Of a stretch of DNA of 34,894 nucleotides, positions 5,146 through 31,657 are shown piece after piece. The stretch lies in assembly GCA_903877335.1 (NCBI GenBank), contig CAIRDJ010000059.1:1-34894 (forward strand), in the 5' to 3' direction. A program made the translations under genes and the position numbers. How positions within the stretch are numbered: the stretch's first letter is position 1; every line of letters starts with the position of its first letter. The notes under the pieces are model-generated. The model searched no databases. It saw only the letters and a list, made by a program, of their open reading frames with translations, and had not been told where the DNA came from. Source of the stretch: an uncultured Chloroflexota bacterium (GTDB lineage: Bacteria; Chloroflexota; Anaerolineae; Aggregatilineales; Phototrophicaceae).

Positions 5146-5319
5146 GTAAGAACCTCCAAATTATAGGGCTAATTGGGCAAGTAAAGCGAAAACTCGCTCC
5201 TAACATTGTACTGATTTAATGGGCAATTTTCCACAAAATCTAACCTATATTACTATAACTTTTTGCCTACGGATAGGTATAAAATTTGCTCATCCCAACC
5301 AATGAATGAAGGTAGTGTC

Positions 5320-6270: not shown

Positions 6271-6271
6271 C

Positions 6272-7660: not shown

Positions 7661-7693
7661 TGTCATCCCACACTAGGGATGGATGGAGTCTTT

Positions 7694-8812
7694 ATGAAGC
7701 GTCTGTCAACATGGTCTAGTATCTTTCTGCTTTTGCTTCTAGTTGGATTCACCCATGTTGATGTTCATTCTCATTCGGCTTCCGCTTCTGTGGCTCATCT
7801 ACAAACAACACCAGCGATTTTAGGGGGAACGGCTTCACAATCAGATCGCACTAATTTACCTGTGGCGACCGTGACCAGCTTTATCCCCCTTGCTGTCGCT
7901 ACCGAGGTCAGCTCCCCCGCGACGATGGACAGCATGAGCGTAACCCTTACAAGCGAGATCGGTCAAACTCAAGCTACCTATCAAACGCAGCGTAATAACC
8001 CCTTGAACGATTTACTGCTCAACCTGGTCAATCCTGCAGACCTGGCTCTAATTCCGAAGGATGAACTCAAGCAGGCAATTGAACGGTTCAATGCGCAGCA
8101 GTTAACGGATGTTACGGTTAGTTTAGATTTAGTCGCGCCAATGCGCTCAGGTGGGATGCCCTCGCCTGTTCCCCCAATGGAGACGCCAGCGTTGCAAGGG
8201 GAGGTGGCGGATCCCACTCCTGTTCCACAATTGGCAACCAGCGCGCCTGTACTTGACTCGGTTATTTTGAGCGATCTAACAGCAGATGACCTTGCACCGC
8301 TTGACCCGCTTGTGTGGGCTACCATCCTTAAGAATCGATTATTTGAGGATGTGTTGGTAATTGTGTCTGGTTTACCGTTCGATGCGCAAACTGCCATCTT
8401 ACTCAAAATCAATGCTGACTTCGTATCCGATCTACCCACACCCTCCCCACAACCAAGTCCGACTCGTGCCCCAACCAACACGCCTGTGCCGACAGCAATT
8501 CCGTTGCCCACGACGACCTTCACTCCAACTGCGATCATTCCCCCTAGTGCCACTTTTACCGTGACCGACAGACCCCTACCTACCAATACCAAAGTGCCTA
8601 CCGTGTTCATACCCACTGCGACATTTACCCTAACTGCTCGTCCGTTACCCACAAGCACGGTCCGACCTACGCAAGTGGTGCTCACGCCCACCTATACAGT
8701 TTCACCCCCATTTCAACCAAGCCGGACCTTCACCCCATCTCCAATTCCACCCCCGACCGCAACACGCACCCCAACACTGGTCCCAACGCCGTCTCCCACG
8801 CGCTCGTCCTAA
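7694..8812 (+). CDS. Secreted Pro/Thr-rich repeat protein (hypothetical)
   Basis: Sec-type signal peptide 'MKRLSTWSSIFLLLLLVGFTHVDVHSHSASA'. SD-like 'GGATGGAG' upstream of the ATG at 7694 (an in-frame ATG at 7679 is also possible). C-terminal third is low-complexity P/T-rich with tandem units such as 'ATFTVTDRPLPTNTKVPT' / 'ATFTLTARPLPTSTVRPT'. Confidence 0.55.
   Translation: MKRLSTWSSIFLLLLLVGFTHVDVHSHSASASVAHLQTTPAILGGTASQSDRTNLPVATVTSFIPLAVATEVSSPATMDSMSVTLTSEIGQTQATYQTQRNNPLNDLLLNLVNPADLALIPKDELKQAIERFNAQQLTDVTVSLDLVAPMRSGGMPSPVPPMETPALQGEVADPTPVPQLATSAPVLDSVILSDLTADDLAPLDPLVWATILKNRLFEDVLVIVSGLPFDAQTAILLKINADFVSDLPTPSPQPSPTRAPTNTPVPTAIPLPTTTFTPTAIIPPSATFTVTDRPLPTNTKVPTVFIPTATFTLTARPLPTSTVRPTQVVLTPTYTVSPPFQPSRTFTPSPIPPPTATRTPTLVPTPSPTRSS
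8440..8810 (+). repeat. Coding Pro/Thr-rich low-complexity tandem region inside the secreted protein gene
   Basis: Repeated 'PT..P' tracts and two roughly 18-aa near-identical units visible in the translation. Confidence 0.5.
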
Positions 8813-8927
8813 TTTCCTTCGGATGGGTTGAATCTTGGTGAATAGGGAGAGTTGTCACAATCATTCATTGAAAAAAGCACCATTGCATTCTATTCTTTAA
8901 CACGGAAGCTACAAAAAATGGTTTAGG

Positions 8928-11549
8928 ATGAAGGTCACTTTTGTGAACAACCAGCAGTATAGCTCTAGCGCAATTTATCCCCCAAGCCACAGCATTTCAG
9001 GTTTAGCTTGTATCGCACACTTGGTAAAACTTCAGGGTCACACCACACCTAGCTTTCCACAAGTGGATGAGCGTGAACTTCAACAAGCCAGTGCCTTGCA
9101 AAAAGTGGCAAAGCAAATGGGGTTGGAATCACACATGATGCTCATTGCCAAAGACCATCTGGAAGAGTTGGCGGAAATAAATGCCCCCATCCTCATCCCC
9201 TTGCTTTCTGAGAGGTTGAATCAAGTTGAGTGGGCGATTCTTTGGAGCAAACGAGGTAATCTCTTCGAAGTATTAGACCCACAACTTGGGCGACGGTGGC
9301 TATCAACGGCGCAGTTGAATGAATTGATGCACCAAGCATCCATGACCATTTCTAGTCAAACATGGACGCAACTTGTTCAAAGTGAGTTGTTTCTGAAGGG
9401 AACCGCACGTTTGTTGCAGTCCCTACATTTGTCTGTTGAACACATCCAAGACTTGACCGAATCCTACCCTAGCCCAGAACAGATGCGGGTGTTGGATGCT
9501 GCCATCCGTTTTGTCGCGCAATTGACTCGTGAACAAGGTGGCATTTTCAAAGGGGAAGAGAGTTATCGCATGCTCAAATCCTTGTGTGATCGCTTTCTGG
9601 CACAACCGAGCGACCACCTTCTCCCCACCCGTTACTTCAGCGTGATTCCTCACCAAGAAAGCCAAGATTGGTTGTGGAGTGGGTATTGCGTGTTGGTCGT
9701 AGACGATTTTGCCGCCGTTGCACCCAGCGGTTCGGTGAACTGGCAACAGATTGTTGCCACGCTCAATCCCTTTCCACCACAGATTAGAAGTTATCTCACG
9801 AATCAAAGACTATTCCTTACCCTCACTTTTTCAGCTTTGCTATTGGGGGCACTAGGCACGTTCCTTCAAGTGATTCTATTGCGTGGGGTTTTGCTGGTTG
9901 TTGCACAAGTGGGGAACTTTGAACAACGATTACAAATTATTTTGGGCATTGCGTTGTTTTTCCTCATGCTGGGCTTGTTACGCTTAATGACCAACTTTGC
10001 CCTTGTGCGTTTAGGACATCAATTGGATGGGCGTTTGCGGACGACCATCTTGAACCTTTTGCCCACGCTACGTGACGATATTTTTCAGCATATTCCAATT
10101 GGAGACTTGGCAGAGCGCACCAGTAGCTTACGCGCGGTGCGCCATTTACCCTATTATTTTGGAGAGTCCGTCCAACTTCTCACTCAAATTGTGCTGACCG
10201 CGATCGGCTTGATCTGGTTGGATTGGGTAGTTGCTTTGTTGGCTATCGTGCGTGTTGCCATTTCGTTCAGCTTAATTGGCTTGGTGAATATTCTCAATTT
10301 GCCCAATAAGATTACTCGTCAAAATCTGGGATTGCTGGGACAGTTTCACCTAGACACCCTAATTTCTTTGGTGCCCATACGGTCGCATGTGGCAGAAGCC
10401 TCTACCACCCAGCAACATAACCACCTACTTGGACGGTGGTTAAAAGGTCGTTGGACGGAGCATCGCATTGAGATTGTGATTGAATGGGTGATAACCATAA
10501 ACTCCTTCTTGCTGGTGGCATTGATTATGTGGGTTTATTCGCTACGCACGACCACATCCAATTATTGGCTACTGGTGCTGTATTGGAGCATCTCATTGGA
10601 TGTTTTGGGCACACAACTGATGAACATCATCTTTCTTGCCCGTCGCGAGCGCAGCAAAGTCGAGCGATTCATGCAACTGGTTGATGATGCGAATCAGTCT
10701 GCGCCTTCCGCAACTACCTCCACCGTTCCCATCGACTGGCAATCGCAAGGTGTGAATATTCAACTGCGTGATTTAACTGTTCACCTTGAATCCCAAACAT
10801 TACTTCGTTCGATTAACTTAGACCTTGAAGCTGGCGAACATGTCGCGGTGGTGGGTTTGTCTGGCGCGGGTAAATCTACCCTAGCGAATTTGATGTTGGG
10901 GCTTTACACCCACTTTGATGGATTCTTCGTGGTTAATGGTCAACCTGTCACCCCTCAGCTGTTCGACACATTAAGGCAACATACCGTTTGGGTCAGTCCT
11001 AATGTCAAACTGTGGAACCGCACCTTGTTGGAAAATCTACAATATGGCGCGGCTAAACCATTCCGCTCTTTGGAAGAAACGCTCACCAAGTCGTCGTTGA
11101 ACACGCTCATCGAGCGGTTGCCCGAAGGGATGCAAACGATTTTGTTTGAGGATGGAAAGCGGGTTTCTGGGGGTGAACGACAAAAGATTCAGTTTGGGCG
11201 TGCTCTACAACGTGAAGATGTCCGCCTCGTGATTTTGGATGAACCCTTCTCTGAACTGAATCACCAACAACACCGTGAAATGCTGGAGCACAGCCGGGCA
11301 ACTTGGCGCGATGCTACCCTGTTATACATCACTCATGATCTGGAATTGTCCACCACTTTTAAGCGTGTATTGGTTGTCCATGATGGGCAGATTGCGGAGG
11401 ACGGGGTGCCACAGGACTTGTTAGATGAGCCTACCCTGTATGCCCGCATGCACGCCAGCGCAAAAAGTTGGCAAGAGGCAAAACAACAAATGGGGAATCC
11501 ACGCTATATTCGGCTTCAAGATGGAGTATTAAAAGAAGGTGTGCCATAG
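8928..11549 (+). CDS. ABC exporter (fused TMD-NBD) with an N-terminal peptidase-C39-like domain (bacteriocin/peptide-exporter family, COG2274-like)
   Basis: C-terminal NBD: Walker A 'GLSGAGKSTL', signature 'VSGGERQKIQ', Walker B 'ILDEPFSELN'. Central segment of about 6 TM helices. N-terminal roughly 150 aa resemble a C39 domain ('SGLACIAHL' near the Cys-motif position), but Trp replaces the expected His ('EWAILW'), so it is possibly a non-catalytic C39-like domain. Confidence 0.8.
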   Translation: MKVTFVNNQQYSSSAIYPPSHSISGLACIAHLVKLQGHTTPSFPQVDERELQQASALQKVAKQMGLESHMMLIAKDHLEELAEINAPILIPLLSERLNQVEWAILWSKRGNLFEVLDPQLGRRWLSTAQLNELMHQASMTISSQTWTQLVQSELFLKGTARLLQSLHLSVEHIQDLTESYPSPEQMRVLDAAIRFVAQLTREQGGIFKGEESYRMLKSLCDRFLAQPSDHLLPTRYFSVIPHQESQDWLWSGYCVLVVDDFAAVAPSGSVNWQQIVATLNPFPPQIRSYLTNQRLFLTLTFSALLLGALGTFLQVILLRGVLLVVAQVGNFEQRLQIILGIALFFLMLGLLRLMTNFALVRLGHQLDGRLRTTILNLLPTLRDDIFQHIPIGDLAERTSSLRAVRHLPYYFGESVQLLTQIVLTAIGLIWLDWVVALLAIVRVAISFSLIGLVNILNLPNKITRQNLGLLGQFHLDTLISLVPIRSHVAEASTTQQHNHLLGRWLKGRWTEHRIEIVIEWVITINSFLLVALIMWVYSLRTTTSNYWLLVLYWSISLDVLGTQLMNIIFLARRERSKVERFMQLVDDANQSAPSATTSTVPIDWQSQGVNIQLRDLTVHLESQTLLRSINLDLEAGEHVAVVGLSGAGKSTLANLMLGLYTHFDGFFVVNGQPVTPQLFDTLRQHTVWVSPNVKLWNRTLLENLQYGAAKPFRSLEETLTKSSLNTLIERLPEGMQTILFEDGKRVSGGERQKIQFGRALQREDVRLVILDEPFSELNHQQHREMLEHSRATWRDATLLYITHDLELSTTFKRVLVVHDGQIAEDGVPQDLLDEPTLYARMHASAKSWQEAKQQMGNPRYIRLQDGVLKEGVP

Positions 11550-11552
11550 ACC

Positions 11553-13826
11553 ATGAATCAACTCTTAGAAACAGTGCAAAATAGTCAAGTATTCAAGTTA
11601 ATTAGTGAATTTTGGGTCTCGACCAGCCAATCAAGCCCATTGATTGGGCTATTCGTGATTACCATGATCGGGTATTTTGGGGGGCGTTTACTCGCCAACC
11701 TTCTTTTTCTCATCATGCGTTCCAACGGAAGAACCGTCAACAAGCAACAACGAATGTTCTTGGGGTCCGTCTTCAATGTGTTTGGTTTGGCGGTTGCACT
11801 TGGTATTGGTATTCAACTGGTGCAATTTGACTTACGGGGGGAGACCTGGTTGTTCAACTTTTATGTTGTTGTCATGATCGGTAGCGTCCGTTGGTTTATG
11901 GTGGAATTGAGCGAAGAAATCAATCCGGCTATCTTGCGACGCTTAGGTTATGTGCTGTCAGTGCGCATTAGTTCTACGAGCTACTGGTTGGTAGCTTTCT
12001 TATATCTTGCGTATGTCTGGATTTCGTGGCCCATCCCCTGTGCTCCCCAGTGTGTGGGCGCGTCGCTGACCAACATCAACATGAGCGGCTTGGAATTACG
12101 CTTCGCAAACTTGACCAATGCCAACTTACGCAACTCAAGTTTTCAACGCGCTAATTTAACTGGAAGCAGTTTTGTTGGGGCGCAACTTGTCCGAGCAAAT
12201 TTTCGAGAGGCGAATTTGACGGGTGTGGATTTTTCTGGTGCCAACCTCACCTACGTTGATTTTGGCGGGGCAATTCTGGACAACACCCGCTTTGCAGGTG
12301 CCAATTTAACCGGCGCCAATTTAACCGCCGTTGACTTCAGCACGCTTGTTATTGATGGTGCCATTCTTGATGGAGCCAAATTGATTCAATCGAAAATGTC
12401 TGGCGTTGATTATCCTGGGGGTAGTCTAATAAGTGCTGATTTGACGAATGCCGACCTAAGCAATACCAATCTTCGCGGTACACAGTTTTCACGTGCAGAT
12501 TTATCTGGAGCGAATCTGTCGGGTTCCAAGTTGAACGGCTCGGTTTTCAACCTTGCTAACCTGGGTGATACGCACATGACCGATGCTGATTTAAGTGGCT
12601 CGCTGATGATTGGTGCAGATCTACTTTCATCAAATATGTCCAACAGTCGCCTGGTTGGCGTGAACTTCATTGGGGCGGATTTGTCGGGTGCGAATTTGTC
12701 CGGCACCAACCTCGCTTCTATTCTGCTCTTTAGAAGTGAGTTTGACGATAGCCTCGAAGTTACCGACGTAACACTGGCTTCGTTAAATGCCAGTGAATTG
12801 ACCGCCGTAATCAAGAATGCGGAGTATTCAGGAATCATCACGGATGAAAACGTGGTTTGGCCCACTGATAAAGAACGTCTCTTGAAAGATATTCTGGGGA
12901 TTCCATTTGTCTATGAAGTTGACCCTGAGTCCTTACTTGTTTCATTGCCCAAGCCCACCGAAGTGCGCGGAAATTTATCCATCTATGTCTCTGAAGACTT
13001 GAGTAGATTATATGATGTCGCGCTAGAAGGATTTTCAGAAAGTGGATTTCAAGGGACGATGAATCGGCATGCATTGGTGGAGGCAAACGAGTTTCTTGAC
13101 CTTTGCACCCAAACAGACCTTAATCTGGCAGTGTACACTTTGAATGTCCCATCAGAGGCGGATTTAGCAGTCTGCGAGTCCAACGGTGTGGCACTGTCAA
13201 GTTTTCCGATTGGCGCGCGGGTTGCTTTGGTGGCGGTGGTTAACCCCAAAAATACGGGGGCTACACAACTTTCCACAGGCAAGTTAGGCATAGCCCTCAC
13301 TGTAGAGCGGTGGAGCGATGTGGAAAGCTGGTTTCAAGCGGTCGATATTGAGCGTTATCTGCCCGTTCCAGAAACCCCCGGATTTGAGATTCTCTCGGAA
13401 TTGTTTACGGGAGGGCGCGATGACCTGCTGTTGGAAAGCAAAAATACATCGTTTGTCACGTCTAATGTTGATGTCATTTTGGGGGTAACATCCAATGAGA
13501 ATGCTATTGGGTTCCTAGACTATAACTACTACTTTGAGAATAAGACGTTGTTGACTGGACTGCAGTTGGACGGTGCGAATATTTCAGAGGAGTTGCCAAA
13601 AGCCTACCCCCTCGCTGAACCTATATTCATTTACTTCGATCAGAATCGATTAGTCAGTCATCCAGAATTGGTGTCCTACATCGGTTACTTCATCGCGAGA
13701 GTTCCTGCTGAACAAACCAACTTTGGTCAACTCACCTTAAACAACCATGTGCGCGTCTCCATTATTCAAGACTTGCATGACATGGCACAGCTTGAAACCG
13801 CAAACCCTACCAGTGAAGGATCATAG
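11553..13826 (+). CDS. Membrane-anchored pentapeptide-repeat protein with a C-terminal domain of unknown function
   Basis: ATG 3 nt after the upstream stop. About 4 N-terminal TM helices. About 45 consecutive pentapeptide repeats, A(D/N)L/F-x-x (e.g. 'ANLTNANLRNSSFQRANLTGSSFVGAQLVRANFREANLTGVDFSGANLTY'). A C-terminal segment of about 370 aa carries no motif I recognise. Confidence 0.8.
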   Translation: MNQLLETVQNSQVFKLISEFWVSTSQSSPLIGLFVITMIGYFGGRLLANLLFLIMRSNGRTVNKQQRMFLGSVFNVFGLAVALGIGIQLVQFDLRGETWLFNFYVVVMIGSVRWFMVELSEEINPAILRRLGYVLSVRISSTSYWLVAFLYLAYVWISWPIPCAPQCVGASLTNINMSGLELRFANLTNANLRNSSFQRANLTGSSFVGAQLVRANFREANLTGVDFSGANLTYVDFGGAILDNTRFAGANLTGANLTAVDFSTLVIDGAILDGAKLIQSKMSGVDYPGGSLISADLTNADLSNTNLRGTQFSRADLSGANLSGSKLNGSVFNLANLGDTHMTDADLSGSLMIGADLLSSNMSNSRLVGVNFIGADLSGANLSGTNLASILLFRSEFDDSLEVTDVTLASLNASELTAVIKNAEYSGIITDENVVWPTDKERLLKDILGIPFVYEVDPESLLVSLPKPTEVRGNLSIYVSEDLSRLYDVALEGFSESGFQGTMNRHALVEANEFLDLCTQTDLNLAVYTLNVPSEADLAVCESNGVALSSFPIGARVALVAVVNPKNTGATQLSTGKLGIALTVERWSDVESWFQAVDIERYLPVPETPGFEILSELFTGGRDDLLLESKNTSFVTSNVDVILGVTSNENAIGFLDYNYYFENKTLLTGLQLDGANISEELPKAYPLAEPIFIYFDQNRLVSHPELVSYIGYFIARVPAEQTNFGQLTLNNHVRVSIIQDLHDMAQLETANPTSEGS

Positions 13827-14861
13827 ATGACAACTGCTAACCCACTTCTAGCCGCGCTAAAGACTGCTACTTTGAACTTTAGGTTGATCGTAATTGTACT
13901 GCTCTTCCTCATTTTGGCAGGTTGCCGCTCTGTCGCGCCGGGGTGCCCTCCAGATTGTAAAGGCATCCGCCTTCGACAAGGCAACTTTTCGGGGATAAAT
14001 TTGTCTAATTCAGATTTGCGCGATGCTGAAATCCGCGGTTCTAATTTGGCAAACGCTAACTTTCGTGGTGCAGACCTCTCTGGTGCAAACCTGTCTGAGT
14101 CTTCATTAGTGGGTGCTGACTTCTCAAATGCCATCTTGGACGGCGCGATTTTTAGTGAGTCAAACTTGAGTGGCGCCATTTTAGATAACTCGCGCATGAT
14201 TGGAACGAACCTCAGTCGCGCTCAATTAATTGGGGTGGATTTTCGCACCGCTGAGCTTGCTGCCATAATCATGAACGAGTCCGTGTTGATCGGCGCGAAT
14301 CTTTCTGATCGCTCGCTTCAGGGTGTTCAGTTGATTGGGGCAGATTTACGCGGTGCCAGTCTCATCAATACGGATTTATCGGGAGCCACGTTAGGGATTA
14401 TCGCTGGGCGCGGAACCACTTTGCGAGGTGCGAACTTGTCAGGTGCGATTTTGGAGGGAGCCACGCTCAACGGGGTTGACCTTTCTGGGACCAACATGAG
14501 CGGCGTAAATTTGCGGGGGGCGGTCATTGGGCGACGCTCACGAGCCTTGGGCGCAAACCTTGAAGGAGCAAACTTAGAAAACGCTTTGTTGGAAGAAGTG
14601 AGTTTTGCGGGGGCGGATATGAAAGGAGTGAGTGTGGCTAACAGTTTGATCCAACGCATCCGTCTCAACGGCGCCCAACTGCACGATGCATCCTTTGAGG
14701 GTGCGTCGTTTGTGTTGACGCGCCAAGATGAGGCAGAGGAACGCCCAAGCTCCATCTTTGATTTGAATGGTGCCATCTACAATGAAAATACGGTGTTCCC
14801 AGCAGGCTACGAAGCACCGAGCAGTGCTCTGTTAGACGAACAGACTAGTAGCAACCCTTAA
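13827..14861 (+). CDS. Pentapeptide-repeat lipoprotein
   Basis: ATG immediately follows the upstream TAG (translational coupling). Signal peptide with lipobox 'ILAGC'. Nearly the whole mature protein is pentapeptide repeats ('SNLANANFRGADLSGANLSESSLVGADFSNAILDGAIF...'). Confidence 0.8.
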   Translation: MTTANPLLAALKTATLNFRLIVIVLLFLILAGCRSVAPGCPPDCKGIRLRQGNFSGINLSNSDLRDAEIRGSNLANANFRGADLSGANLSESSLVGADFSNAILDGAIFSESNLSGAILDNSRMIGTNLSRAQLIGVDFRTAELAAIIMNESVLIGANLSDRSLQGVQLIGADLRGASLINTDLSGATLGIIAGRGTTLRGANLSGAILEGATLNGVDLSGTNMSGVNLRGAVIGRRSRALGANLEGANLENALLEEVSFAGADMKGVSVANSLIQRIRLNGAQLHDASFEGASFVLTRQDEAEERPSSIFDLNGAIYNENTVFPAGYEAPSSALLDEQTSSNP

Positions 14862-14937: not shown

Positions 14938-16380
14938 TTAGTTGCCGCCCGTGTTCTGCTGTTGCTGTTGTTGTTCTCCCGCGCCAAAGCCGCCCATCGC
15001 CCCAAACCCTTGTTGCTGTTGAGCGCCTGCGCCAAAGCCACCCATCGCCCCAGATCCTTGTTGCTGTTGTTGTTCTCCTGCGCCAAAGCCACCCATCGAC
15101 CCAAATCCTTGTTGCTGTTGTTCGCCTGCGCCAAAGCCGCCCATCGACCCAAATCCTTGTTGCTGTTGTTCGCCTGCGCCAAAGCCGCCCATCGACCCAA
15201 ATCCTTGTTGCTGTTGAGCACCTGCGCCAAAGCCACCTGTCGCACCAAATCCTTGTTGCTGTTGTTGAGCACCTGCACCGTCTAGTGGGGTAAATGCAGA
15301 GGGCGCAATAGGCGTTGCTAAGGAGAACGGCGCACTGTTGTCCAATGGCGAAGCTGAAAAATTAGTGGACGTGTCAGACACCAAATCATCTGGCAAAGGC
15401 AAAATCAAGGGGTTTTCACTGGGCAACAACATCACGCGGACATTTGGTGAAATTTTGTCAATATAGTAGTAGGTGAGTACCTCTGGGGACTCTTGCAACG
15501 CCTTGCCGATTTCACGCGCAGCGTTGGCTTGCGCAAGGGCGCGGATTTCTGTTGCGGTTGCATCCCCTCGGGCTAGGCGAATCTCACGCTCTGCTTGAAA
15601 CAATGCCGCTTCTTGTTGTTCTTTCGCCACTTGTTTGGCTTCAACTGATGCTGCATATTCTACCGAGAAAGTAATATCACGAATGAGGAATTGATCCAGC
15701 TCGAATCCTTTAAGCGTAAGCTCTTCGCGCAGCAGTCGTTCAAGCGTGGCTTCAAGTTCGGCACGGGAGGAACTATTGACCTCATTCACGGTGAATTTTG
15801 AAACCTCTGTGCGCACAAAGCCCCGCACTAACGGACGGATCAAATCATCGATGTAGCGATCTTGCCAATCCACATGCACTTGTGTCACTTGATTCACATC
15901 AATGCGAAAGATGGTGGAGGTGCTAAGGCGCACTTCTTGCCCGTCTTTGGTACGCGCTCGAATTGAATCATCCCCAATATCTTCCGCTGAACCCTCTCCA
16001 TTTGACATGGTGTAGGTTTGGTAGTAGATCGGGTAGAGTTGCACTTGCTCTAAAAATGGAATAATCACATGTAAACCGGCGCGAAGGGGCTGTTGGCGGA
16101 TACCATCAGGGGATAAAGCCGAAATCACCACGGCAACCGCAGCGGGTTGAATGAAGTTGACCGCGTATCCCAGTACGACAATTCCAAGCGTGAAGGTGAA
16201 CGGGATCAACACTTGCGCAGAAATAAGCCGCAGGAACGCAAGTACAAGCCCTTGTCGTGTCAAGGTGAGCACGAACAAAACTACGATGTAGATCACAAAT
16301 CCAACGACGGCAACATTGGATAGGATAGTAAGGAGCGTATCTATGTTAAATGCAATGAACGCCGATGAACTTGGCATCAT
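14938..16380 (-). CDS. SPFH/band-7 (flotillin/HflK-like) membrane protein with a C-terminal Gly/Gln-rich tandem-repeat tail
   Basis: N-terminal TM helix, SPFH-type core, and coiled-coil Ala/Glu-rich segment 'AKQVAKEQQEAALFQAEREIRLARGDATATEIRALAQANAAREIGKAL'. The tail is 7 repeats of a 16-aa unit. Start is probably the ATG-ATG at 16380/16377 ('MMPSSSAF...'); the upstream in-frame ATG at 16434 would overlap the NfeD-like gene. Confidence 0.75.
   Translation of the reverse strand: MMPSSSAFIAFNIDTLLTILSNVAVVGFVIYIVVLFVLTLTRQGLVLAFLRLISAQVLIPFTFTLGIVVLGYAVNFIQPAAVAVVISALSPDGIRQQPLRAGLHVIIPFLEQVQLYPIYYQTYTMSNGEGSAEDIGDDSIRARTKDGQEVRLSTSTIFRIDVNQVTQVHVDWQDRYIDDLIRPLVRGFVRTEVSKFTVNEVNSSSRAELEATLERLLREELTLKGFELDQFLIRDITFSVEYAASVEAKQVAKEQQEAALFQAEREIRLARGDATATEIRALAQANAAREIGKALQESPEVLTYYYIDKISPNVRVMLLPSENPLILPLPDDLVSDTSTNFSASPLDNSAPFSLATPIAPSAFTPLDGAGAQQQQQGFGATGGFGAGAQQQQGFGSMGGFGAGEQQQQGFGSMGGFGAGEQQQQGFGSMGGFGAGEQQQQQGSGAMGGFGAGAQQQQGFGAMGGFGAGEQQQQQQNTGGN
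14959..15272. repeat. About 6.5 copies of a 48-bp tandem repeat within the 3' end of the SPFH gene, encoding (GFG[AS]MGGFGAG[AE]QQQQ)n
   Basis: Near-identical 48-bp units visible in the DNA (e.g. 15121-15168 and 15169-15216 are essentially identical). Overlapping ORFs in the other frames and strand are artefacts of the repeat. Confidence 0.85.
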
Positions 16381-16405
16381 AGGGTCAACCTCGCTGTGTT
16401 CTGTT

Positions 16406-16852
16406 TTATCCGATAGCTTGCAACACTGCTTCAAATGGCGTTTGTTGATCTATGACGACCGTCACAACCCCATGCAACAGATTTTCGACCGCATAGCGGT
16501 GTTGATTTGTGAATTCGGTTTTCAGAATAACTTCACCGTTCAAATCATTTATTTCTAAAATGGCACTAGGAACGGATTCTATATTGCCATTCTTGTCCAA
16601 ATATTGAAATAGTGCAACGTCGCCGGCTTGAAGTTTACTTTTGTCGGCAGGCACGAAAATAGCCACAGTGCTGCGACTGTCCACGACCTGAGAATCCACA
16701 GAGTAGATTTTGACCGCCAGCGGAAAGGTGAAAAAACCAACAATCCATGCCAAAACCACCACAAGCAACAGCGTCATGACAATCAGGAGAAACACACGGT
16801 TCGTGCGTTGAAGCTCGATCAGAGAATAGGGAAGGTTATTTGAATCATTCAT
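16406..16852 (-). CDS. NfeD-like small membrane protein (SPFH-operon partner)
   Basis: 148 aa. N-terminal TM helices 'LLIVMTLLLVVVLAWIVGFFTF' followed by a beta-rich soluble domain. Lies immediately upstream of, and co-directional with, the SPFH gene, which is the canonical NfeD-stomatin/flotillin arrangement. Call rests on context and architecture only. Confidence 0.5.
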   Translation of the reverse strand: MNDSNNLPYSLIELQRTNRVFLLIVMTLLLVVVLAWIVGFFTFPLAVKIYSVDSQVVDSRSTVAIFVPADKSKLQAGDVALFQYLDKNGNIESVPSAILEINDLNGEVILKTEFTNQHRYAVENLLHGVVTVVIDQQTPFEAVLQAIG

Positions 16853-16854
16853 AA

Positions 16855-18954
16855 CTACTCGCTGTCAATCATAATCAATGTCTTGGAATACTTAATGAGT
16901 GCCTGTAGTACGCGCACCTTGTTTTCGGGGTCTAGCGCAACCAGATTCTCATCAATGATGGTGAGGTCTGGTTTTTGTAAAATGGCACGCGCAACGAAAA
17001 TGCGGTTGCGCTCCCCATGTGAAAGCCTCCATTCGGTTTCGCCCACCTTTTGATGAATGCCAAAGGGCATGTCATGCATTAACCCACCTAAACCCAATTC
17101 CTCACACAGTGCTTGCGCTTCTGCCAGATCGCCGGGGGTGGGGGTTCGGTTGCGCCCCATCAAAAGATTATATGCCAGCGACCCGTTGAGAATGTGATTT
17201 TGCGCGCTTGCCGAAACATACGCGATATTCTTGCGCCAAATGCGCGGGTTCAAGGTGTATTGATCGTTGCCCGCATAGAGTAACACACCAGAGGTGGGTT
17301 GTCTAAGGTGACACAAGACCGTGGCGAGGGTGGATTTCCCGCTCCCGGTTTCTCCTTGTAACCATAGTGTTTCACCGCTGTGGATGGTTAAGTTGACATT
17401 GTTAAGAATGGGTTCAAGGTTTTCGGTAAATCGAAAGCGGATGTTGCGCAGTTCTAAAATGATGTTGCTTCGGTTTACCTTATCGGTCATCTGGGGGTGT
17501 TGTTCGTTGTTCTGTGAAATTGCCTTGAGTTGTTGAATTTGATGCCAGGCATGGGTGCTTTTAACTAACTCTGGAATAGAAAAAGCTAAGATTTGCAACT
17601 GCATAAATGCGAACAACCACAGCGACAGACGCAAGCTAATGCCTAAGGGGGAGATGACGGCGGGATAAAGCGCGAGGGGGGCAATCCCCAATAATGCTAC
17701 CAAAACCCCGCCATAGGGAATGAGCGTCCAAACGAGGGTGGCAAGTCGGTCATAGCGAGTTGCCTGTTGCAGATATTGAGCAAGCACAGCATCCTCACGT
17801 TTGAACCAGTTTGTCTCCTGCACGAGGCGTGTGGTGTGCCCGCGAAGGTTTTCCACAAATTGATGAATGAGGTGTTTGTGTTGGGTGTGGAAGGTAGGGT
17901 ATTGTTGCACGAGATACCGAATCATCCCCACACAAATTGCTAACCAGCTCGCCAGAATCAGTGCGCTGAATAAATCCCCAATGATGAGCAGTACAAGCGT
18001 CACCAAGATGAGAAATACGGCAGAAGCGATCACCCAGGCACTGCGTTGAAAACCGGATTCCTCTAACGTTTCGGTTTCCATCACATCGTGAAAATATTGT
18101 GTGCTGTGCTGGAAAACTTCGCCAATGGGCAACTGAAGGGTATCTTGGAAAAGTTGTTGTTTGATGTTCAAGCCGAGCTTGAGCGCGTAGTAGTGTTCTA
18201 GCCAGGTGAGCATCAGGGCAATCGGAATGCGCGAAACCCACACCAAAAGCCCTAACACTAGCCAAAACGGGTTGATCCGTCCGCTGACACTGGCTTGCCC
18301 CATGAGCGCGATCGCTGTGAAGAATAGAATGTAGTGCCCACTCCGCAAGCCAATTTGTAGCCCCAACCAGCGAAGAATTTGCTGGCGCGTATTGCTGAGC
18401 GCGTTGGTAATTTGTGTGTTGACTAACCAGATGCCTTGAATGTGGTGTTGAGCGAGATGTAGATCGAGGTAGGCTTCACGCACTGCCTGGCGACGAAACA
18501 TCGGAAGGCCCACATCTTGCAAAAGCTGCGTGGTAATTTCAAAGTAGGCACGCTGCAACGGTTCTCTGAAGACATTTTGCAAGCGTTTCAAGGACAATCG
18601 TGTTCGCCTTCCGTCGTTCCCCAAAAGTGTGGCATGACGGGCACCACACCGCAGCACCACCACATACCCGTGCAAGGATTCAGTTTGTGTGGTGGAAGGA
18701 ACGGACAAGATTGCGGGGGAGTTGGCGCGGAGTAGTTCCATCAGTTGCGCGTATGACACGGCAACTTCCGTCAAACCTAATTGGAGCTTATCGCTAGTCT
18801 GCAATAACCATTCTTCAAAGGGGAGTGTCTCTTGGGTTGCGTCATACGATTCGACAAGGTGCGGTTCAGCGGATTGCCGAAGCAAAACCAACGCTTGATG
18901 CAGGTTGGAAGCGTTCCAGATCAGGGTATTTTGAGCAAGTTGATTCAATCGCAT
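16855..18954 (-). CDS. ABC exporter (fused TMD-NBD) with an N-terminal C39-like domain lacking the catalytic Cys
   Basis: NBD: Walker A 'GETGSGKSTL', signature 'LSHGERNRIF', Walker B 'IIDENLVALD'. N-terminal roughly 170 aa show C39-like spacing with a His-motif-like 'LHGYVVVL' but no N-terminal Cys motif. The stop is 3 nt before the start of the NfeD-like gene. Confidence 0.8.
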   Translation of the reverse strand: MRLNQLAQNTLIWNASNLHQALVLLRQSAEPHLVESYDATQETLPFEEWLLQTSDKLQLGLTEVAVSYAQLMELLRANSPAILSVPSTTQTESLHGYVVVLRCGARHATLLGNDGRRTRLSLKRLQNVFREPLQRAYFEITTQLLQDVGLPMFRRQAVREAYLDLHLAQHHIQGIWLVNTQITNALSNTRQQILRWLGLQIGLRSGHYILFFTAIALMGQASVSGRINPFWLVLGLLVWVSRIPIALMLTWLEHYYALKLGLNIKQQLFQDTLQLPIGEVFQHSTQYFHDVMETETLEESGFQRSAWVIASAVFLILVTLVLLIIGDLFSALILASWLAICVGMIRYLVQQYPTFHTQHKHLIHQFVENLRGHTTRLVQETNWFKREDAVLAQYLQQATRYDRLATLVWTLIPYGGVLVALLGIAPLALYPAVISPLGISLRLSLWLFAFMQLQILAFSIPELVKSTHAWHQIQQLKAISQNNEQHPQMTDKVNRSNIILELRNIRFRFTENLEPILNNVNLTIHSGETLWLQGETGSGKSTLATVLCHLRQPTSGVLLYAGNDQYTLNPRIWRKNIAYVSASAQNHILNGSLAYNLLMGRNRTPTPGDLAEAQALCEELGLGGLMHDMPFGIHQKVGETEWRLSHGERNRIFVARAILQKPDLTIIDENLVALDPENKVRVLQALIKYSKTLIMIDSE

Positions 18955-19014: not shown

Positions 19015-19047
19015 CCCACAACCCATAATCTAGTTTATGGGTTGTGG
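19015..19047. terminator. Perfect 13-bp inverted repeat (CCACAACCCATAA-tctagt-TTATGGGTTGTGG), a putative terminator or regulatory hairpin between the SBP gene and the ABC-NfeD-SPFH operon
   Basis: Read directly from the sequence. Followed by 'AGCTTTTGC' on the + strand, with no clean U-tract on the - strand. Confidence 0.4.
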
Positions 19048-19059
19048 AGCTTTTGCATG

Positions 19060-26966: not shown

Positions 26967-27031
26967 GACACTTTTGGGGAGCGCATAACGTGAGACATTC
27001 GCTCTCTTTGTATCACAATCATAGTAACTTA

Positions 27032-28201: not shown

Positions 28202-28401
28202 CATTTGGGTATCATAAGGGATGGCTACTGTTGCTGGATGAGAGGCTACGATTTTTGAGATATAGGGCACGGAGTGGAGATCGTGGTTGGTAATGTGTCT
28301 GCACGCGCCGTCGAAGTGTCAGAAACCTTAGGGAAGCGGTTAACTCTAGCGAATAGGACTTGTTTTATTACAATCACATTTATGACAGGATAAGTAATTA
28401 G

Positions 28402-30911: not shown

Positions 30912-30961
30912 GTTGTTGGTTGCCTCCTTTAGGGTTCTGAAAAGACGGAGTGGATGATGGG

Positions 30962-31657
30962 TTATGTGTTGATTACATCCTCAAGCACCTGGTCGAACGC
31001 TTTGCGATCGGTTCTAGCTGCCTTGCGAATAGAAGCGTCAATGTATTCACGGCGCTCCTTTTCAGTGCCGAGCAGGATTTCAGGGGTGGGAGGCTCGATT
31101 AGTTTGAGGTCAGCTAGCTTATTAAGCAGTTGCATCCCAACTTGGTCGTTTTCCTTGCGAGCGAGGCTGTTCAACGTATCCATGTAGGTTCGGAACTGGT
31201 TGAGTTCCGGTTGAACCTGTGTCGCCTTCCAGCAGGCTTTACAGTACATCACCACAACAGCTTTCACGGGCGATTCCAACTCCGGATTCTGGGATAAGTC
31301 ATGGTCGTTCAACCAGCGCAACTCAATATTGAGGTCATTACAGAAGAGTGCCAGTTGATAGGCTAGGGCGCGGCTTCCTTCGGGCGACAAAGATAGTAAC
31401 CATAATTGTAACTCTGGCTCATCATTTAGCCCCACTTTTACCCACTCTACAAAATCTTGTCCTAGCATTTCTGTCGTTTTGGAGTTTAAACCCGACTCTG
31501 TAATGGAACGCACATTATCAAGCACCTGGTCTGTCACGGTGCTAATTTGATCTCGAACAGCGTTAAGGCGCGGGGCCACTCGTTCGCTTAACTGAATCTG
31601 TCTTTCTGCGTAAACAGCTGCGACGATCATCAGAATCAAGATAATTAAAAATGGCAT
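30962..31657 (-). CDS. Hypothetical membrane-anchored protein
   Basis: 231-aa ORF with N-terminal TM helix 'MPFLIILILMIVAAVYA'. Rest is predicted soluble and helical. No motif recognised. Confidence 0.4.
   Translation of the reverse strand: MPFLIILILMIVAAVYAERQIQLSERVAPRLNAVRDQISTVTDQVLDNVRSITESGLNSKTTEMLGQDFVEWVKVGLNDEPELQLWLLSLSPEGSRALAYQLALFCNDLNIELRWLNDHDLSQNPELESPVKAVVVMYCKACWKATQVQPELNQFRTYMDTLNSLARKENDQVGMQLLNKLADLKLIEPPTPEILLGTEKERREYIDASIRKAARTDRKAFDQVLEDVINT

What the first reader, a model, noticed from the sequence alone, without database searches (positions are those of the whole stretch)
7679..14861. Four-gene operon: secreted P/T-rich protein, C39-like-domain ABC exporter and two pentapeptide-repeat proteins (one polytopic, one lipoprotein)
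The four plus-strand genes are packed with 3-nt and 0-nt gaps between the last three, so they are almost certainly co-translated. The ABC exporter carries an N-terminal C39-peptidase-like domain, the architecture used for leader-peptide-dependent export of bacteriocins and RiPPs and, in inactive form, by HlyB-type secretion. Its partners are two pentapeptide-repeat proteins. Pentapeptide-repeat proteins are established immunity or self-protection partners of peptide-toxin exporters (McbG with McbEF for microcin B17; AlbG; Qnr) and of the glycolipid-export systems HetC/HglK in cyanobacteria. The 757-aa member fuses 4 TM helices, roughly 45 repeats and a roughly 370-aa C-terminal domain I cannot place. 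No double-glycine-leader precursor ORF is visible nearby, so the cargo is unknown and may be encoded elsewhere.
Basis: partly seen in the sequence, partly recalled or inferred. Interest (0 to 1): 0.7.

Follow-up and report, generated by a model that had tools for sequence, protein, structure and literature searches.

The report
Dead-protease ABC exporter with pentapeptide-rod partners
A Chloroflexota gene cluster couples a two-subunit ABC exporter, whose bacteriocin-type protease domain has lost its catalytic residues, to two membrane-tethered pentapeptide-repeat proteins predicted to lie outside the cell, one ending in a degenerate phosphate-binding-protein fold; the function is unknown, but the conserved linkage offers a way to test what such repeat proteins do.

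Summary
The four plus-strand genes are real, with the stated coordinates and gaps of 115, 3 and 0 nt.

- **ABC exporter (873 aa).** Its N-terminus has a C39 peptidase fold, but the catalytic residues are replaced (Cys to Ser24, His to Glu101, Gln to Pro).
- **757-aa protein.** It has four TM helices, about 46 pentapeptide repeats and a C-terminal domain that I place as a PstS-type binding-protein fold whose phosphate-binding residues are substituted.
- **344-aa protein.** It has a conserved lipobox and is a paralogue of the 757-aa protein without the binding domain.

The unit is larger than reported. ABC873 pairs with ABC699 on the minus strand (16855-18954); the two are fused into one protein in Chloroflexaceae. 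The repeat-protein pair recurs in nine Chloroflexota lineages. An SPFH/Band7 protein and a small TM protein accompany it in eight, a Cys-less P-type ATPase or fragment in seven, and the exporter in five or six.

In 76 metagenome loci whose relatives carry the catalytic Cys motif, none has repeat-protein neighbours; they sit in HlyD + C39-ABC + second-ABC triads. The repeat domains are probably extracytoplasmic, so a McbG/Qnr-style immunity role is unlikely. The P/T-rich gene is restricted to the family. Cargo and function remain unknown. I rate this a new variant of a known kind, of moderate interest.

The parts
7679..8812 (+). P/T-rich secreted protein (377 aa). It has an N-terminal signal-like hydrophobic segment, and its last 127 residues are 53% Pro+Thr. 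Membership in the system is doubtful.
   Evidence: Translation and composition. No Pfam or NCBIfam family. Homologues occur only in the close relatives L001 and L004 (58% and 51% identity, against 78% and 70% for the ABC gene) and are absent from L007, L010, L011, L012 and L022.
8928..9350 (+). ABC873 residues 1-141: a C39-peptidase-fold domain with the catalytic residues replaced (Ser24 for Cys, Glu101 for His, Pro for the oxyanion Gln; Asp117 kept). This is a pseudo-peptidase, or C39-like, domain.
   Evidence: Pfam PF03412 scores 17.2 bits, below the cut-off of 22. Alignment with C39-positive homologues. In a 100-sequence alignment, 81 carry Cys and 87 carry His at these columns. The AF2 model has pLDDT 86. 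Foldseek finds PCAT1, the ComA peptidase domain (TMt 0.59-0.66) and LahT.
9354..9809 (+). ABC873 residues 143-294: an extra, mostly helical subdomain between the C39-like domain and the membrane domain. It is conserved across the whole 860-960-aa family (LDAAxR motif).
   Evidence: The listed PDB matches align the N-terminal C39-fold part, and I found no distinct match for residues 143-294.
9810..11549 (+). ABC873 membrane domain and nucleotide-binding domain. Exporter-type fold, with Walker A GLSGAGKST, signature VSGGE, Walker B ILDE and an H-loop His.
   Evidence: The NCBIfam MsbA-type alignment covers residues 298-843. phmmer against PDB aligns ABCB1-type exporters over residues 328-843.
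11553..12035 (+). PRP757 residues 1-161: a four-helix membrane anchor. Predicted topology is N-out/C-out by the positive-inside rule.
   Evidence: AF2 helices at 29-57, 64-89, 94-123 and 131-158. Homologues replace this anchor with 1, 2 or 5 TM segments. The topology is inferred.
12039..12743 (+). PRP757 residues 163-397: a CxPxC cap (Cys163 and Cys167 invariant) followed by about 46 pentapeptide repeats, giving a right-handed beta-helix of about 11.5 coils. I estimate it at roughly 5.5 nm, assuming about 0.48 nm per coil (from my own knowledge, not measured on the model).
   Evidence: Pfam Pentapeptide E 1.5e-52. Repeat register. Invariant columns. AF2 strand ladder from 165 to 393. Foldseek hits to HetL, Np275/276 and Qnr.
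12960..13790 (+). PRP757 residues 470-746: a PstS-family type II periplasmic-binding-protein fold. An invariant Cys pair (518 and 541) is present, and the phosphate-binding elements are substituted (GSSTV to VSEDL; SGTGGG loop to EANEF; the SRPIT Arg to Leu; SGT to TPG).
   Evidence: TIGR02136 gives E 1.4e-11 but 44 bits against a cut-off of 206.6. PF12849 is present in homologues. Profile against 4jwo gives E 3.1e-53. Residue comparison. Foldseek top hit is 4jwo.
13827..14861 (+). PRP344: a predicted lipoprotein (lipobox LAGC, Cys33) with a GCPPxC cap, about 50 pentapeptide repeats and a C-terminal cap YNxxTxFPxGY. It is a paralogue of PRP757 without the binding-protein domain.
   Evidence: Pfam Pentapeptide E 5.8e-59. 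Lipobox and cap conservation in 11 homologues. It lies immediately downstream of the PRP-PBP gene in all 9 lineages examined.
16855..18954 (-). ABC699: the partner half-transporter of ABC873. It has its own roughly 200-aa degenerate C39-like N-domain, a degenerate signature (LSHGE) and no H-loop His.
   Evidence: It is fused to an ABC873-like half in one 1653-aa protein in L007, and again in L022. It lies directly after the C39-ABC in L010 and in the catalytic relatives. The N-domain profile (A8) against the ABC873-type profile (A4) gives hhalign probability 95.7%, E 8.6e-9.
16406..16852 (-). orf148: one TM segment plus a beta-rich domain of about 100 aa, encoded between ABC699 and Band7. It is homologous to the 151-161-aa gene that precedes the PRP-PBP gene in L007 and L022.
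   Evidence: Alignment A6. No Pfam or NCBIfam hit. No BLAST similarity to the HlyD adaptor of the catalytic relatives.
14938..16434 (-). SPFH/Band7 membrane protein, convergent with PRP344. Together with the o231-like protein (each 8 of 9) it is the most constant neighbour of the repeat-protein pair after PRP344 itself. Here it has a Gly/Gln-rich repeat tail.
   Evidence: Pfam Band_7 E 1.4e-31. It is 47-53% identical to the neighbours of PRP-PBP genes in L007, L010, L011, L012, L022, L050 and L052.
30962..31657 (-). o231: a single-pass TM protein with a Cys-containing helical domain. It is the window's copy of the 230-320-aa gene that follows Band7 in the other lineages.
   Evidence: BLAST to L007, L010, L011 and L012 with E values from 1e-13 to 1e-49. 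No Pfam family.
20829..22991 (+). P1B-like P-type ATPase lacking the CPx metal motif (T-A-P-I-S instead). A P-type ATPase of this kind, or a truncated P-type-like ORF (L012), lies near the repeat-protein pair in 7 of 9 lineages.
   Evidence: TIGR01525 scores 412.5 bits against a cut-off of 346.

Best explanation
**What it is.** This is part of a Chloroflexota-specific membrane module, not a bacteriocin operon. ABC873 (8928-11549) and ABC699 (16855-18954, minus strand) form an asymmetric heterodimeric exporter-fold ABC transporter. It descends from a widespread two-subunit peptidase-containing exporter, made of an HlyD adaptor, a C39-ABC and a second ABC with a degenerate C39-like domain. In this branch the remaining active peptidase has also lost its Cys, His and Gln.

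**How it most likely works.**
- Both cytoplasmic N-domains can only dock a substrate or partner, as the C39-like domain of HlyB does. Any cargo therefore leaves uncleaved.
- The two co-translated partners are paralogous pentapeptide-repeat beta-helices that sit outside the cytoplasmic membrane. One is held by a four-helix anchor and the other by a lipid anchor.
- I estimate each as a rigid rod of roughly 5.5-6 nm, from the repeat count and an assumed rise per coil. The longer protein carries at its tip a PstS-like binding domain that no longer has a phosphate site.
- I propose that the rods act as fixed-length spacers. They would hold a ligand-capturing head, and possibly the exported product, at a set distance from the membrane beside the exporter, within a membrane patch organised by the SPFH/Band7 protein.

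**Shown and inferred.** Shown here are the domain identities, the loss of catalytic residues, the subunit pairing by gene fusion and the conserved gene neighbourhood. Inferred are the outside topology, physical coupling of exporter and rods, the spacer role and the nature of the cargo, which is unknown.
For: **Architecture.**
- C39 fold with substituted catalytic residues.
- ABC873-like and ABC699-like halves fused in L007 and L022 and adjacent in L010.
- ABC699-type N-domain homologous to the ABC873-type N-domain, hhalign 95.7%.
- Asymmetric NBD motifs.
- Ancestral context of an HlyD adaptor (TIGR01843, 85.8 bits, below cut-off), a C39-ABC and a second ABC.

**Repeat proteins.**
- Pfam scores far above cut-off.
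- AF2 model with pLDDT 85.
- PstS fold (E 3.1e-53 to 4jwo) with degenerate phosphate-binding residues.
- Lipobox, CxPxC and shared C-cap.
- Homologues with 1-, 2- or 4-5-TM anchors placed directly before the repeats.
- Many other proteins join pentapeptide repeats to domains that are usually extracytoplasmic, such as polysaccharide deacetylase, M23 peptidase and Peripla_BP_6.

**Linkage.**
- 3-nt and 0-nt gaps.
- An ABC873-like gene lies within 10 kb of the repeat-protein pair in 5 of 9 deep lineages (about 30-35% identity between them). The gene order differs among them, and in L051 the order matches the window.
- An ABC699-like gene is also present in L052.
- 0 of 76 loci with the catalytic Cys motif have such neighbours.
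Against: - Within the +/-10 kb examined, three lineages (L011, L012, L050) carry the repeat-protein pair with Band7 and the o231-like protein but no ABC of this family. L052 has only the ABC699-like subunit. The exporter is therefore not obligatory for the pair, at least not in cis.
- No cargo gene was identified.
- The outside location of the repeat domains rests on sequence rules, not experiment.
- The spacer role is an inference from geometry.
- Several unrelated solute-binding proteins and a P-type ATPase share the neighbourhood, so the common theme could be transport or sensing rather than export.
- Contigs are metagenomic. Several are short, and some lineages (L011 and L050; L007 and L022) are not fully independent.
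Confidence: 0.4

Rival explanations
1. The exporter and the repeat proteins are functionally independent. The repeat-protein pair works with SPFH/Band7 and the o231-like protein as an envelope or surface complex. The ABC pair is simply another transporter in a transporter-rich island and was pulled into one operon in this family.
For: Band7 and the o231-like protein accompany the pair in 8 of 9 lineages, whereas the ABC873-like gene does so in 5 of 9. In L007 and L022 the operon is Band7, o231, o180, o161, PRP-PBP, PRP344, and the fused ABC is transcribed divergently.
Against: The ABC family is uncommon. Its degenerate branch was found beside the repeat-protein pair in every degenerate-branch locus recovered through the PRP side (window/L053, L007, L010, L022, L051), in three different gene orders. 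The junctions in the window are 3 and 0 nt, and L051 has the same ABC, PRP-PBP, PRP order. Degenerate ABC homologues found from the ABC side (for example P0160, P0164, P0172, P0200, P0208, P0211) were not checked for neighbours.
Confidence: 0.25
2. This is a surface ligand-capture, uptake or sensing island. PRP757 would be a stalk-mounted solute-binding protein for a phosphate-like or other anion-containing ligand. It would act together with the orphan binding proteins and the unusual P-type ATPase, and the ABC pair would serve in import or homeostasis rather than secretion.
For: PRP757 carries a PstS-fold head. PhnS2-like orphan binding proteins lie next to PRP344 homologues in L011, L012, L050 and L052, at 276-332 bits. 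A LivJ-like binding protein is present in L010, and a TAXI and an SBP_bac_5 protein in the window. P-type ATPases lie nearby in 7 of 9 lineages.
Against: All four phosphate-binding elements are substituted in the window protein. No permease of an importer type is adjacent to the pair. The ABC pair has the exporter fold and descends from secretion systems with HlyD adaptors.
Confidence: 0.2
3. One reading: a leader-peptide-dependent bacteriocin or RiPP exporter, with the two pentapeptide-repeat proteins acting as immunity or self-protection factors (McbG/AlbG/Qnr-like) and the precursor encoded elsewhere.
For: The exporter belongs to a family whose other members carry intact C39 domains, and one relative is encoded next to a LanC-like gene. 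The cargo could be encoded elsewhere.
Against: The catalytic Cys, His and Gln are replaced here and in L007, L010 and L051. The repeat domains follow a lipobox or signal-anchor, and one is fused to a PstS-like domain. Qnr-family scores are 68-72 bits against a cut-off of 240. None of the 76 loci with the catalytic Cys motif has a pentapeptide neighbour. No Gly-Gly-leader ORF lies in the window's intergenic DNA.
Confidence: 0.06

Closest known systems
Peptidase-containing ABC transporters (PCAT1, ComA, LahT/AMS; Pfam PF03412 + ABC exporter)
   Same: An N-terminal cytoplasmic C39-fold domain is fused to an exporter-fold membrane domain and an NBD. The closest PDB folds are PCAT1 and the ComA peptidase domain. 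Family relatives keep the Q/C/H/D catalytic set.
   Different: The Cys, His and Gln positions are substituted. An extra helical subdomain of about 150 aa is present. The transporter is a heterodimer with a second, more degenerate subunit rather than a homodimer. No Gly-Gly-leader cargo is nearby. The Pfam score is below the gathering threshold.
HlyB-type type I secretion ABC transporters with a C39-like domain
   Same: The C39-like domain is catalytically dead and could still dock a substrate, and cargo would be exported uncleaved. HlyB (8dck) appears as a weak structural match.
   Different: No full HlyD adaptor or TolC partner is present in the window. No RTX-type substrate was seen. HlyB is a homodimer. 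TIGR01846 scores 116 bits against a cut-off of 725.
NHLP/Nif11-type bacteriocin export system (TIGR03794 HlyD, TIGR03796 ABC1 with peptidase, TIGR03797 ABC2 without)
   Same: The logic is two subunits, one ABC with a peptidase domain and a second ABC without an active one. The ancestral relatives also have an HlyD adaptor upstream.
   Different: Scores are far below the equivalog cut-offs: 140 against 853 and 110 against 709. The family is longer (860-960 aa) and has the extra subdomain. Here the peptidase is dead and the long adaptor is absent.
HglK of Anabaena/Nostoc PCC 7120 (membrane-anchored pentapeptide-repeat protein needed for heterocyst glycolipid localisation and septal junctions)
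   Same: A four-TM anchor is joined to a long pentapeptide-repeat region in a filamentous bacterium. There is a functional link to export or envelope processes whose mechanism is unknown (PMC8145042).
   Different: HglK carries its 36 repeats at the C-terminus from residue 501 and has no binding-protein domain (PMC8145042). Direct sequence relatedness of the anchors was not tested.
PstS phosphate-binding proteins (PBP_like_2, PF12849; PDB 4jwo, 1twy, 4n13)
   Same: The fold is the same and sequence homology is clear (profile E 3.1e-53; Foldseek).
   Different: The domain is fused to a repeat stalk and a membrane anchor. The phosphate-coordinating motifs are replaced. No pstCAB genes are adjacent. 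TIGR02136 scores 44 bits against a cut-off of 206.6.
Qnr/MfpA/McbG/AlbG cytoplasmic pentapeptide-repeat immunity proteins
   Same: The same right-handed quadrilateral beta-helix repeat.
   Different: By my own knowledge, those proteins are cytoplasmic dimers of about 200 aa that mimic DNA. The proteins here are membrane-tethered, predicted to lie outside the cell and carry Cys caps. NCBIfam Qnr scores are well below cut-off.

Membership tests
Peptidase C39 / PCAT | Papain-like C39 fold at the N-terminus of an ABC exporter | tested here: met
   The AF2 model has pLDDT 86. Foldseek finds PCAT1 (E 2.8e-5), the ComA peptidase domain (TMt 0.66) and LahT.
Peptidase C39 / PCAT | Pfam PF03412 score at or above the gathering threshold | tested here: not met
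   17.2 bits against 22. Homologues at 30-35% identity do carry PF03412.
Peptidase C39 / PCAT | Catalytic Cys and His with the oxyanion Gln | tested here: not met
   Ser24, Glu101 and Pro occupy the aligned columns, and Asp117 is kept.
Peptidase C39 / PCAT | Double-glycine-leader precursor encoded nearby | tested here: not met
   No candidate lies in the intergenic ORFs of the 34.9-kb window. The rest of the genome could not be searched.
HlyB-type C39-like-domain T1SS ABC | C39-like fold without the catalytic Cys | tested here: met
HlyB-type C39-like-domain T1SS ABC | Cognate HlyD-family adaptor, TolC partner and an RTX-type substrate | tested here: not met
   No HlyD-family hit among the window proteins scanned. 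orf148 shows no similarity to the adaptor of the catalytic relatives. TIGR01846 scores 116 bits against a cut-off of 725.
NHLP bacteriocin export ABC1/ABC2 (TIGR03796/TIGR03797) | Equivalog score cut-offs | tested here: not met
   ABC873 scores 140.5 against 853.3. ABC699 scores 110.4 against 709.4.
NHLP bacteriocin export ABC1/ABC2 (TIGR03796/TIGR03797) | Two different ABC subunits acting together | tested here: met
   The two halves are fused in L007 and L022 and adjacent in L010 and in the relatives with the catalytic motif.
Pentapeptide-repeat proteins (PF00805) | At least 8 contiguous A(D/N)LXX repeats and a score above the Pfam cut-off | tested here: met
   175.1 and 195.6 bits against 20.2. 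About 46 and about 50 repeats. Beta-helix in the AF2 model.
Qnr/McbG-type immunity pentapeptide proteins | Family score cut-off and cytoplasmic location | tested here: not met
   NF033086 scores 67.7 and 71.8 bits against 240. A lipobox or TM anchor directly precedes the repeats. The location is inferred from sequence.
HglK | Four TM segments, then a long spacer, then about 36 C-terminal repeats from residue 501; role in glycolipid localisation | tested here: inconclusive
   Here the repeats follow the anchor directly and a binding-protein domain follows them. The HglK description is from PMC8145042. No HglK sequence was available for direct comparison.
PstS phosphate-binding protein | Type II binding-protein fold of the PBP_like_2 family | tested here: met
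   Profile against 4jwo gives E 3.1e-53. Foldseek top hit is 4jwo, TMt 0.65.
PstS phosphate-binding protein | Phosphate-coordinating motifs (GSST, SGTGGG, Arg of SRP, SGT), the family cut-off and an adjacent pstCAB | tested here: not met
   The motifs read VSEDL, EANEF, Leu and TPG. TIGR02136 scores 44.2 bits against 206.6. No pstCAB genes in the window.
Bacterial lipoprotein | Lipobox [LVI][ASTVI][GAS]C after a signal-peptide h-region | tested here: met
   L-A-G-C33 in PRP344. A Cys in the same context occurs in 10 of 11 homologues; the eleventh reads SIRC. Lipid modification itself cannot be tested here.
SPFH/Band7 | Pfam PF01145 above cut-off | tested here: met
   110.4 bits against 23.6.

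The most novel reading that the evidence does not exclude
The cluster may encode an undescribed Chloroflexota envelope-assembly machine. Its parts would be a proteolytically dead heterodimeric PCAT descendant, a Cys-less P-type ATPase, an SPFH scaffold and two extracytoplasmic pentapeptide-repeat rods. Together they would export and position an envelope component, such as a glycolipid, a sulfated or phosphono-lipid, or a surface polymer, in a functional parallel to HglK with the glycolipid exporters of heterocysts.

The ATPase's TM4 motif (APIS/DPLS) resembles, by my recollection, the PISL motif of lipid flippases more than a metal site. If this reading is right, pentapeptide beta-helices would gain a first defined biochemical role, as fixed-length extracytoplasmic spacers.
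Probability: 0.12. Interest if true: 0.8.

Novelty: new variant of a known kind. Interest (0 to 1): 0.5.

Why it matters
The biochemical role of nearly all pentapeptide-repeat proteins outside the DNA-mimic class is unknown (PMC8145042). Here two of them have clear predicted anatomy: a membrane tether, Cys-capped rods of defined repeat number, and a binding-protein head on one. They also have a conserved set of genomic partners: a pseudo-protease heterodimeric ABC exporter, an SPFH protein and an atypical P-type ATPase. This gives concrete, testable hypotheses about what such repeats do outside the cell.

The work also defines a large family that the curated libraries searched here do not capture. 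Its members are two-subunit C39-ABC exporters in which the second subunit carries a cryptic C39-like domain. The family includes a branch where both peptidase domains are inactive.

Tried and rejected
- **Word-indexed homologue search with the N-domain alone:** it returned nothing. The exhaustive representative search was needed instead.
- **phmmer of the N-domain against PDB:** no hit. Only the fold search showed C39.
- **Genome scan with A3:** the pattern T[VA]E[RK]W[SNA]D[VI] is shared with genuine PstS, so the scan returned mostly free-standing PstS genes of Chloroflexota and cyanobacteria. Among the new loci only L014, L022 and L047 clearly carry the fusion.
- **orf148:** BLAST against the HlyD adaptor of the catalytic relatives found nothing. 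Its resemblance to a minimal adaptor or an NfeD-like protein is therefore untested.
- **Promoter and terminator scan:** counts were no different from shuffles, so it is uninformative on operon boundaries.
- **Rfam and tRNA scans:** nothing found.
- **Exact-sequence look-up of PRP757:** not on record.
- **Literature searches:** no paper describing this combination turned up.
- **P/T-rich protein as cargo of the exporter:** rejected. It has its own N-terminal signal-like segment and is absent from all other lineages carrying the system.

Full report
**Observation**

The junctions read TAG-acc-ATG and TAG-ATG, which gives gaps of 3 and 0 nt. The first gap is 115 nt. Domain hits are far beyond chance: Pentapeptide scores 175 and 196 bits against a cut-off of 20.2, and ABC_tran gives E 6.8e-21.

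Near-identical contigs exist in metagenomes (L053 and L054, 99-100% identity). The nearest named genome is a Phototrophicaceae MAG (Chloroflexota), at about 78% amino-acid identity and with the same gene order.

**The ABC exporter**

Pfam sees Peptidase_C39 only below threshold, at 17.2 bits against 22. Three further lines of evidence settle the question.

- **Homologues.** Homologues at 30-35% identity over about 90% of the length carry PF03412 and the canonical QTSxxDCG...HFVV(L)W...VMDP motifs.
- **Family size and conservation.** An exhaustive search with residues 1-294 finds 420 cluster representatives. Most are 860-960-aa proteins, and a few are fusions of about 1600 aa. In a 100-sequence alignment, 81 have the Cys and 87 the His. 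The window protein has Ser24, Glu101 and Pro in place of the oxyanion Gln, and keeps Asp117.
- **Structure.** An AF2 model (pLDDT 86) matches PCAT1, the ComA peptidase domain (TMt 0.59-0.66) and LahT.

The domain is therefore C39-like in fold and descent but is a pseudo-peptidase. Residues 143-294 form an additional helical subdomain that is conserved throughout the family. I found no distinct PDB match for it. The rest of the protein is an exporter-fold membrane domain plus an NBD.

In L007, a relative at about 35% identity, one 1653-aa protein aligns in its first half with ABC873 and in its second half with the 699-aa ABC protein encoded on the minus strand at 16855-18954. A Chloroflexaceae MAG (L022) has the same fusion. 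In L010, and in the relatives with the catalytic motif, the two genes are adjacent.

ABC699 has a degenerate signature motif (LSHGE) and lacks the H-loop His. Such asymmetry is, by my own knowledge, usual in heterodimeric ABC exporters. Its N-terminal region of about 200 aa is homologous to the ABC873-type N-domain (profile-profile probability 95.7%, E 8.6e-9). The family is thus built from one subunit with a real C39 domain and one with a cryptic C39-like domain.

In relatives with intact catalytic residues, the context is an HlyD-type adaptor, the C39-ABC and the second ABC. One such cluster sits next to a LanC-like gene. The closest curated analogue is the NHLP ABC1/ABC2/HlyD export system, but scores are far below its cut-offs.

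**The 757-aa protein**

The AF2 model (pLDDT 85) shows four parts:

| Residues | Feature |
|---|---|
| 29-158 | four long TM helices |
| 165-393 | uninterrupted beta-helix |
| about 398-469 | linker |
| 470-746 | alpha/beta domain |

The repeat register gives about 46 pentapeptides, or about 11.5 coils. I estimate the rod at roughly 5.5 nm, assuming about 0.48 nm per coil; this was not measured on the model.

- TIGR02136 gives E 1.4e-11.
- Homologues carry PF12849.
- A 13-sequence profile hits PDB 4jwo at E 3.1e-53.
- 4jwo is also the top Foldseek match.

Compared with 4jwo, the phosphate-coordinating elements are all replaced in the window protein: GSSTV becomes VSEDL, the SGTGGG loop becomes EANEF, the Arg of SRPIT becomes Leu, and SGT becomes TPG. 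Across the fusion family the Gly-rich loop and the SGT element are also absent. Phosphate is therefore unlikely to be the ligand.

**Topology (inferred)**

Family members use 1, 2 or 4-5 TM helices as anchor. All place an invariant C-x-P-x-C directly before the repeats. A second invariant Cys pair lies in the binding domain.

The 344-aa protein has a lipobox (L-A-G-C33). A Cys in the same context occurs in 10 of 11 homologues, and the eleventh reads SIRC. An invariant GCPPxC follows. Its C-terminal cap (Y-D/N-x-x-T-x-W/F-P) also ends the repeat region of PRP757. The two proteins are therefore paralogues.

The positive-inside rule puts the PRP757 loops 58-63 and 124-130 in the cytoplasm and the repeats outside. 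The homologue list also contains many proteins that join pentapeptide repeats to domains that are usually extracytoplasmic, such as polysaccharide deacetylase, M23 peptidase, Peripla_BP_6 and cytochrome c peroxidase. This points to a general role for these repeats as outside-the-membrane stalks. It argues against a McbG/Qnr-type cytoplasmic immunity role, as do Qnr-family scores of 68-72 bits against a cut-off of 240.

**Synteny from the repeat-protein side**

I examined nine lineages whose PRP-PBP proteins are only about 25-35% identical to each other: window/L004, L007, L010, L011, L012, L022, L050, L051 and L052.

| Neighbour of the PRP-PBP gene | Lineages |
|---|---|
| PRP344 homologue immediately downstream | 9 of 9 |
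| SPFH/Band7 protein (47-53% identical) | 8 of 9 |
| 230-320-aa single-pass protein (window copy at 30962-31657) | 8 of 9 |
| P1B-like P-type ATPase (in L012 only a truncated P-type-like ORF) | 7 of 9 |
| ABC873-like gene | 5 of 9 |
| Either ABC subunit | 6 of 9 |

Gene order differs among the lineages. The ABC is divergent and fused in L007 and L022, lies downstream in L010, and lies directly upstream in the window and L051. The P/T-rich gene occurs only in the Phototrophicaceae-level relatives. It evolves faster than its neighbours (58% and 51% identity against 78% and 70% for the ABC gene). I do not count it as part of the system.

**Synteny from the ABC side**

A metagenome scan with the N-domain motif returned 80 loci. 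Two are the window's own organism. The other 78 all keep the His; 76 score positive for the Cys motif, and the remaining two were not resolved. None of the 78 has a pentapeptide, PstS-like or Band7 neighbour. Where the flank allows, they have the ABC699-like second subunit.

On these data, linkage to the repeat proteins is confined to the Chloroflexota branch with the degenerate peptidase. A few non-Cys family members found only from the ABC side were not checked for neighbours.

**What it most likely is**

The shown facts fit a heterodimeric exporter that descends from a leader-cleaving peptide exporter and has lost proteolysis. It has become associated with two membrane-tethered beta-helical rods, one bearing a binding-protein head, in a neighbourhood with an SPFH scaffold protein.

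I propose three functional points:
- The dead C39-like domains act as docking domains, as in HlyB.
- The cargo leaves uncleaved.
- The rods serve as fixed-length extracytoplasmic spacers beside the exporter.

The coupling and the spacer role are inferences, and the cargo is unknown. No Gly-Gly-leader ORF lies in the window's intergenic DNA. Confidence is 0.4.

The main rival (0.25) is that the exporter and the rods are independent neighbours, since three lineages have the rods without this ABC within 10 kb. A second rival (0.2) is a ligand-capture or homeostasis island. It draws on the orphan binding proteins next to the rods (PhnS2-like in four lineages; LivJ-like, TAXI and SBP_bac_5 elsewhere) and on the P-type ATPases.

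**Comparison and novelty**

The system resembles PCATs, HlyB-type C39-like-domain transporters and the NHLP two-ABC system. It fails membership in each on tested features: catalytic residues, curated cut-offs, and the adaptor and substrate context. It resembles HglK only in being a four-TM pentapeptide-repeat protein (PMC8145042).

Full-text literature searches found no description of a PstS-pentapeptide fusion or of this gene combination. I classify it as a new variant of a known kind. It is of moderate interest, because it offers a tractable entry to the unknown function of extracytoplasmic pentapeptide-repeat proteins.

Noticed in passing
window 14962-15265 (minus-strand Band7 gene, C-terminal tail): A 48-nt tandem repeat of 6.3 copies (88% matches) encodes GFG(A/S)MGGFGAGEQQQQ units at the C-terminus of the SPFH/Band7 protein. 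Homologues in other lineages (350-368 aa) lack this tail.
   Followed up: partly
window 20829-22991; also L004, L007, L010 (two copies), L022, L051, L052: The P-type ATPase passes the heavy-metal P1B cut-off (412 against 346 bits), but its TM motif before DKTGT is T-A-P-I-S rather than CPC, SPC or CPH. All six full-length cluster-linked homologue groups likewise lack Cys (TAPIA, VAPLG, SAPIS, TMPLS, TDPLS, VGPLS). By my recollection the motif resembles the PISL of P4 lipid flippases. The substrate is unknown.
   Followed up: partly
L012 6043-7800 and L052 6028-7779: A P-type-ATPase-like ORF of about 585 aa, with an E1-E2 actuator domain but no DKTGT phosphorylation motif, lies directly upstream of Band7 in two lineages.
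   Followed up: no
window 26939-31657: Two paralogous Sulfotransfer_3 proteins, a TAXI-type solute-binding protein and the o231-like TM protein sit together. Sulfotransferase-like genes also lie next to the repeat-protein pair in L011 and L050, so this block may belong to the same larger cluster.
   Followed up: partly
L011 13116-14240, L012 13300-14397, L050 14200-15276, L052 13403-14473: Orphan PhnS2-like (2-aminoethylphosphonate-type) solute-binding proteins, at 276-332 bits against a cut-off of 392, are encoded at or near the 3' side of the PRP344 homologue in four lineages. No importer permease is adjacent.
   Followed up: partly
L055-L132 (metagenome loci), e.g. L130 8574-14682: A widespread three-gene module is not captured by the curated libraries searched. 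It consists of an HlyD-type adaptor, a roughly 900-aa C39-ABC with an extra helical subdomain, and a roughly 700-740-aa second ABC whose N-domain is a cryptic C39-like domain. No precursor gene was identified next to it, though I did not search for one.
   Followed up: partly
proteins P0040-P0120: Many long proteins join pentapeptide repeats to domains that are usually extracytoplasmic (polysaccharide deacetylase, M23 peptidase, Peripla_BP_6/ANF receptor, SGNH hydrolase, cytochrome c peroxidase, cyclophilin). This suggests a general stalk or spacer use of the repeats.
   Followed up: no
window 19015-19048 (minus strand): A 14-bp-stem hairpin lies between the SBP_bac_5 gene and ABC699. It may terminate the upstream gene, but its T-tail is weak and the scan as a whole was no better than shuffles.
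   Followed up: no
window 5263-7660: An alpha/beta-hydrolase gene and a PLP-dependent decarboxylase gene (tyrosine/aspartate decarboxylase-like) lie directly upstream on the same strand, with the decarboxylase gene ending 18 nt before the P/T-rich gene. They are conserved only in the close relatives L001 and L004.
   Followed up: no
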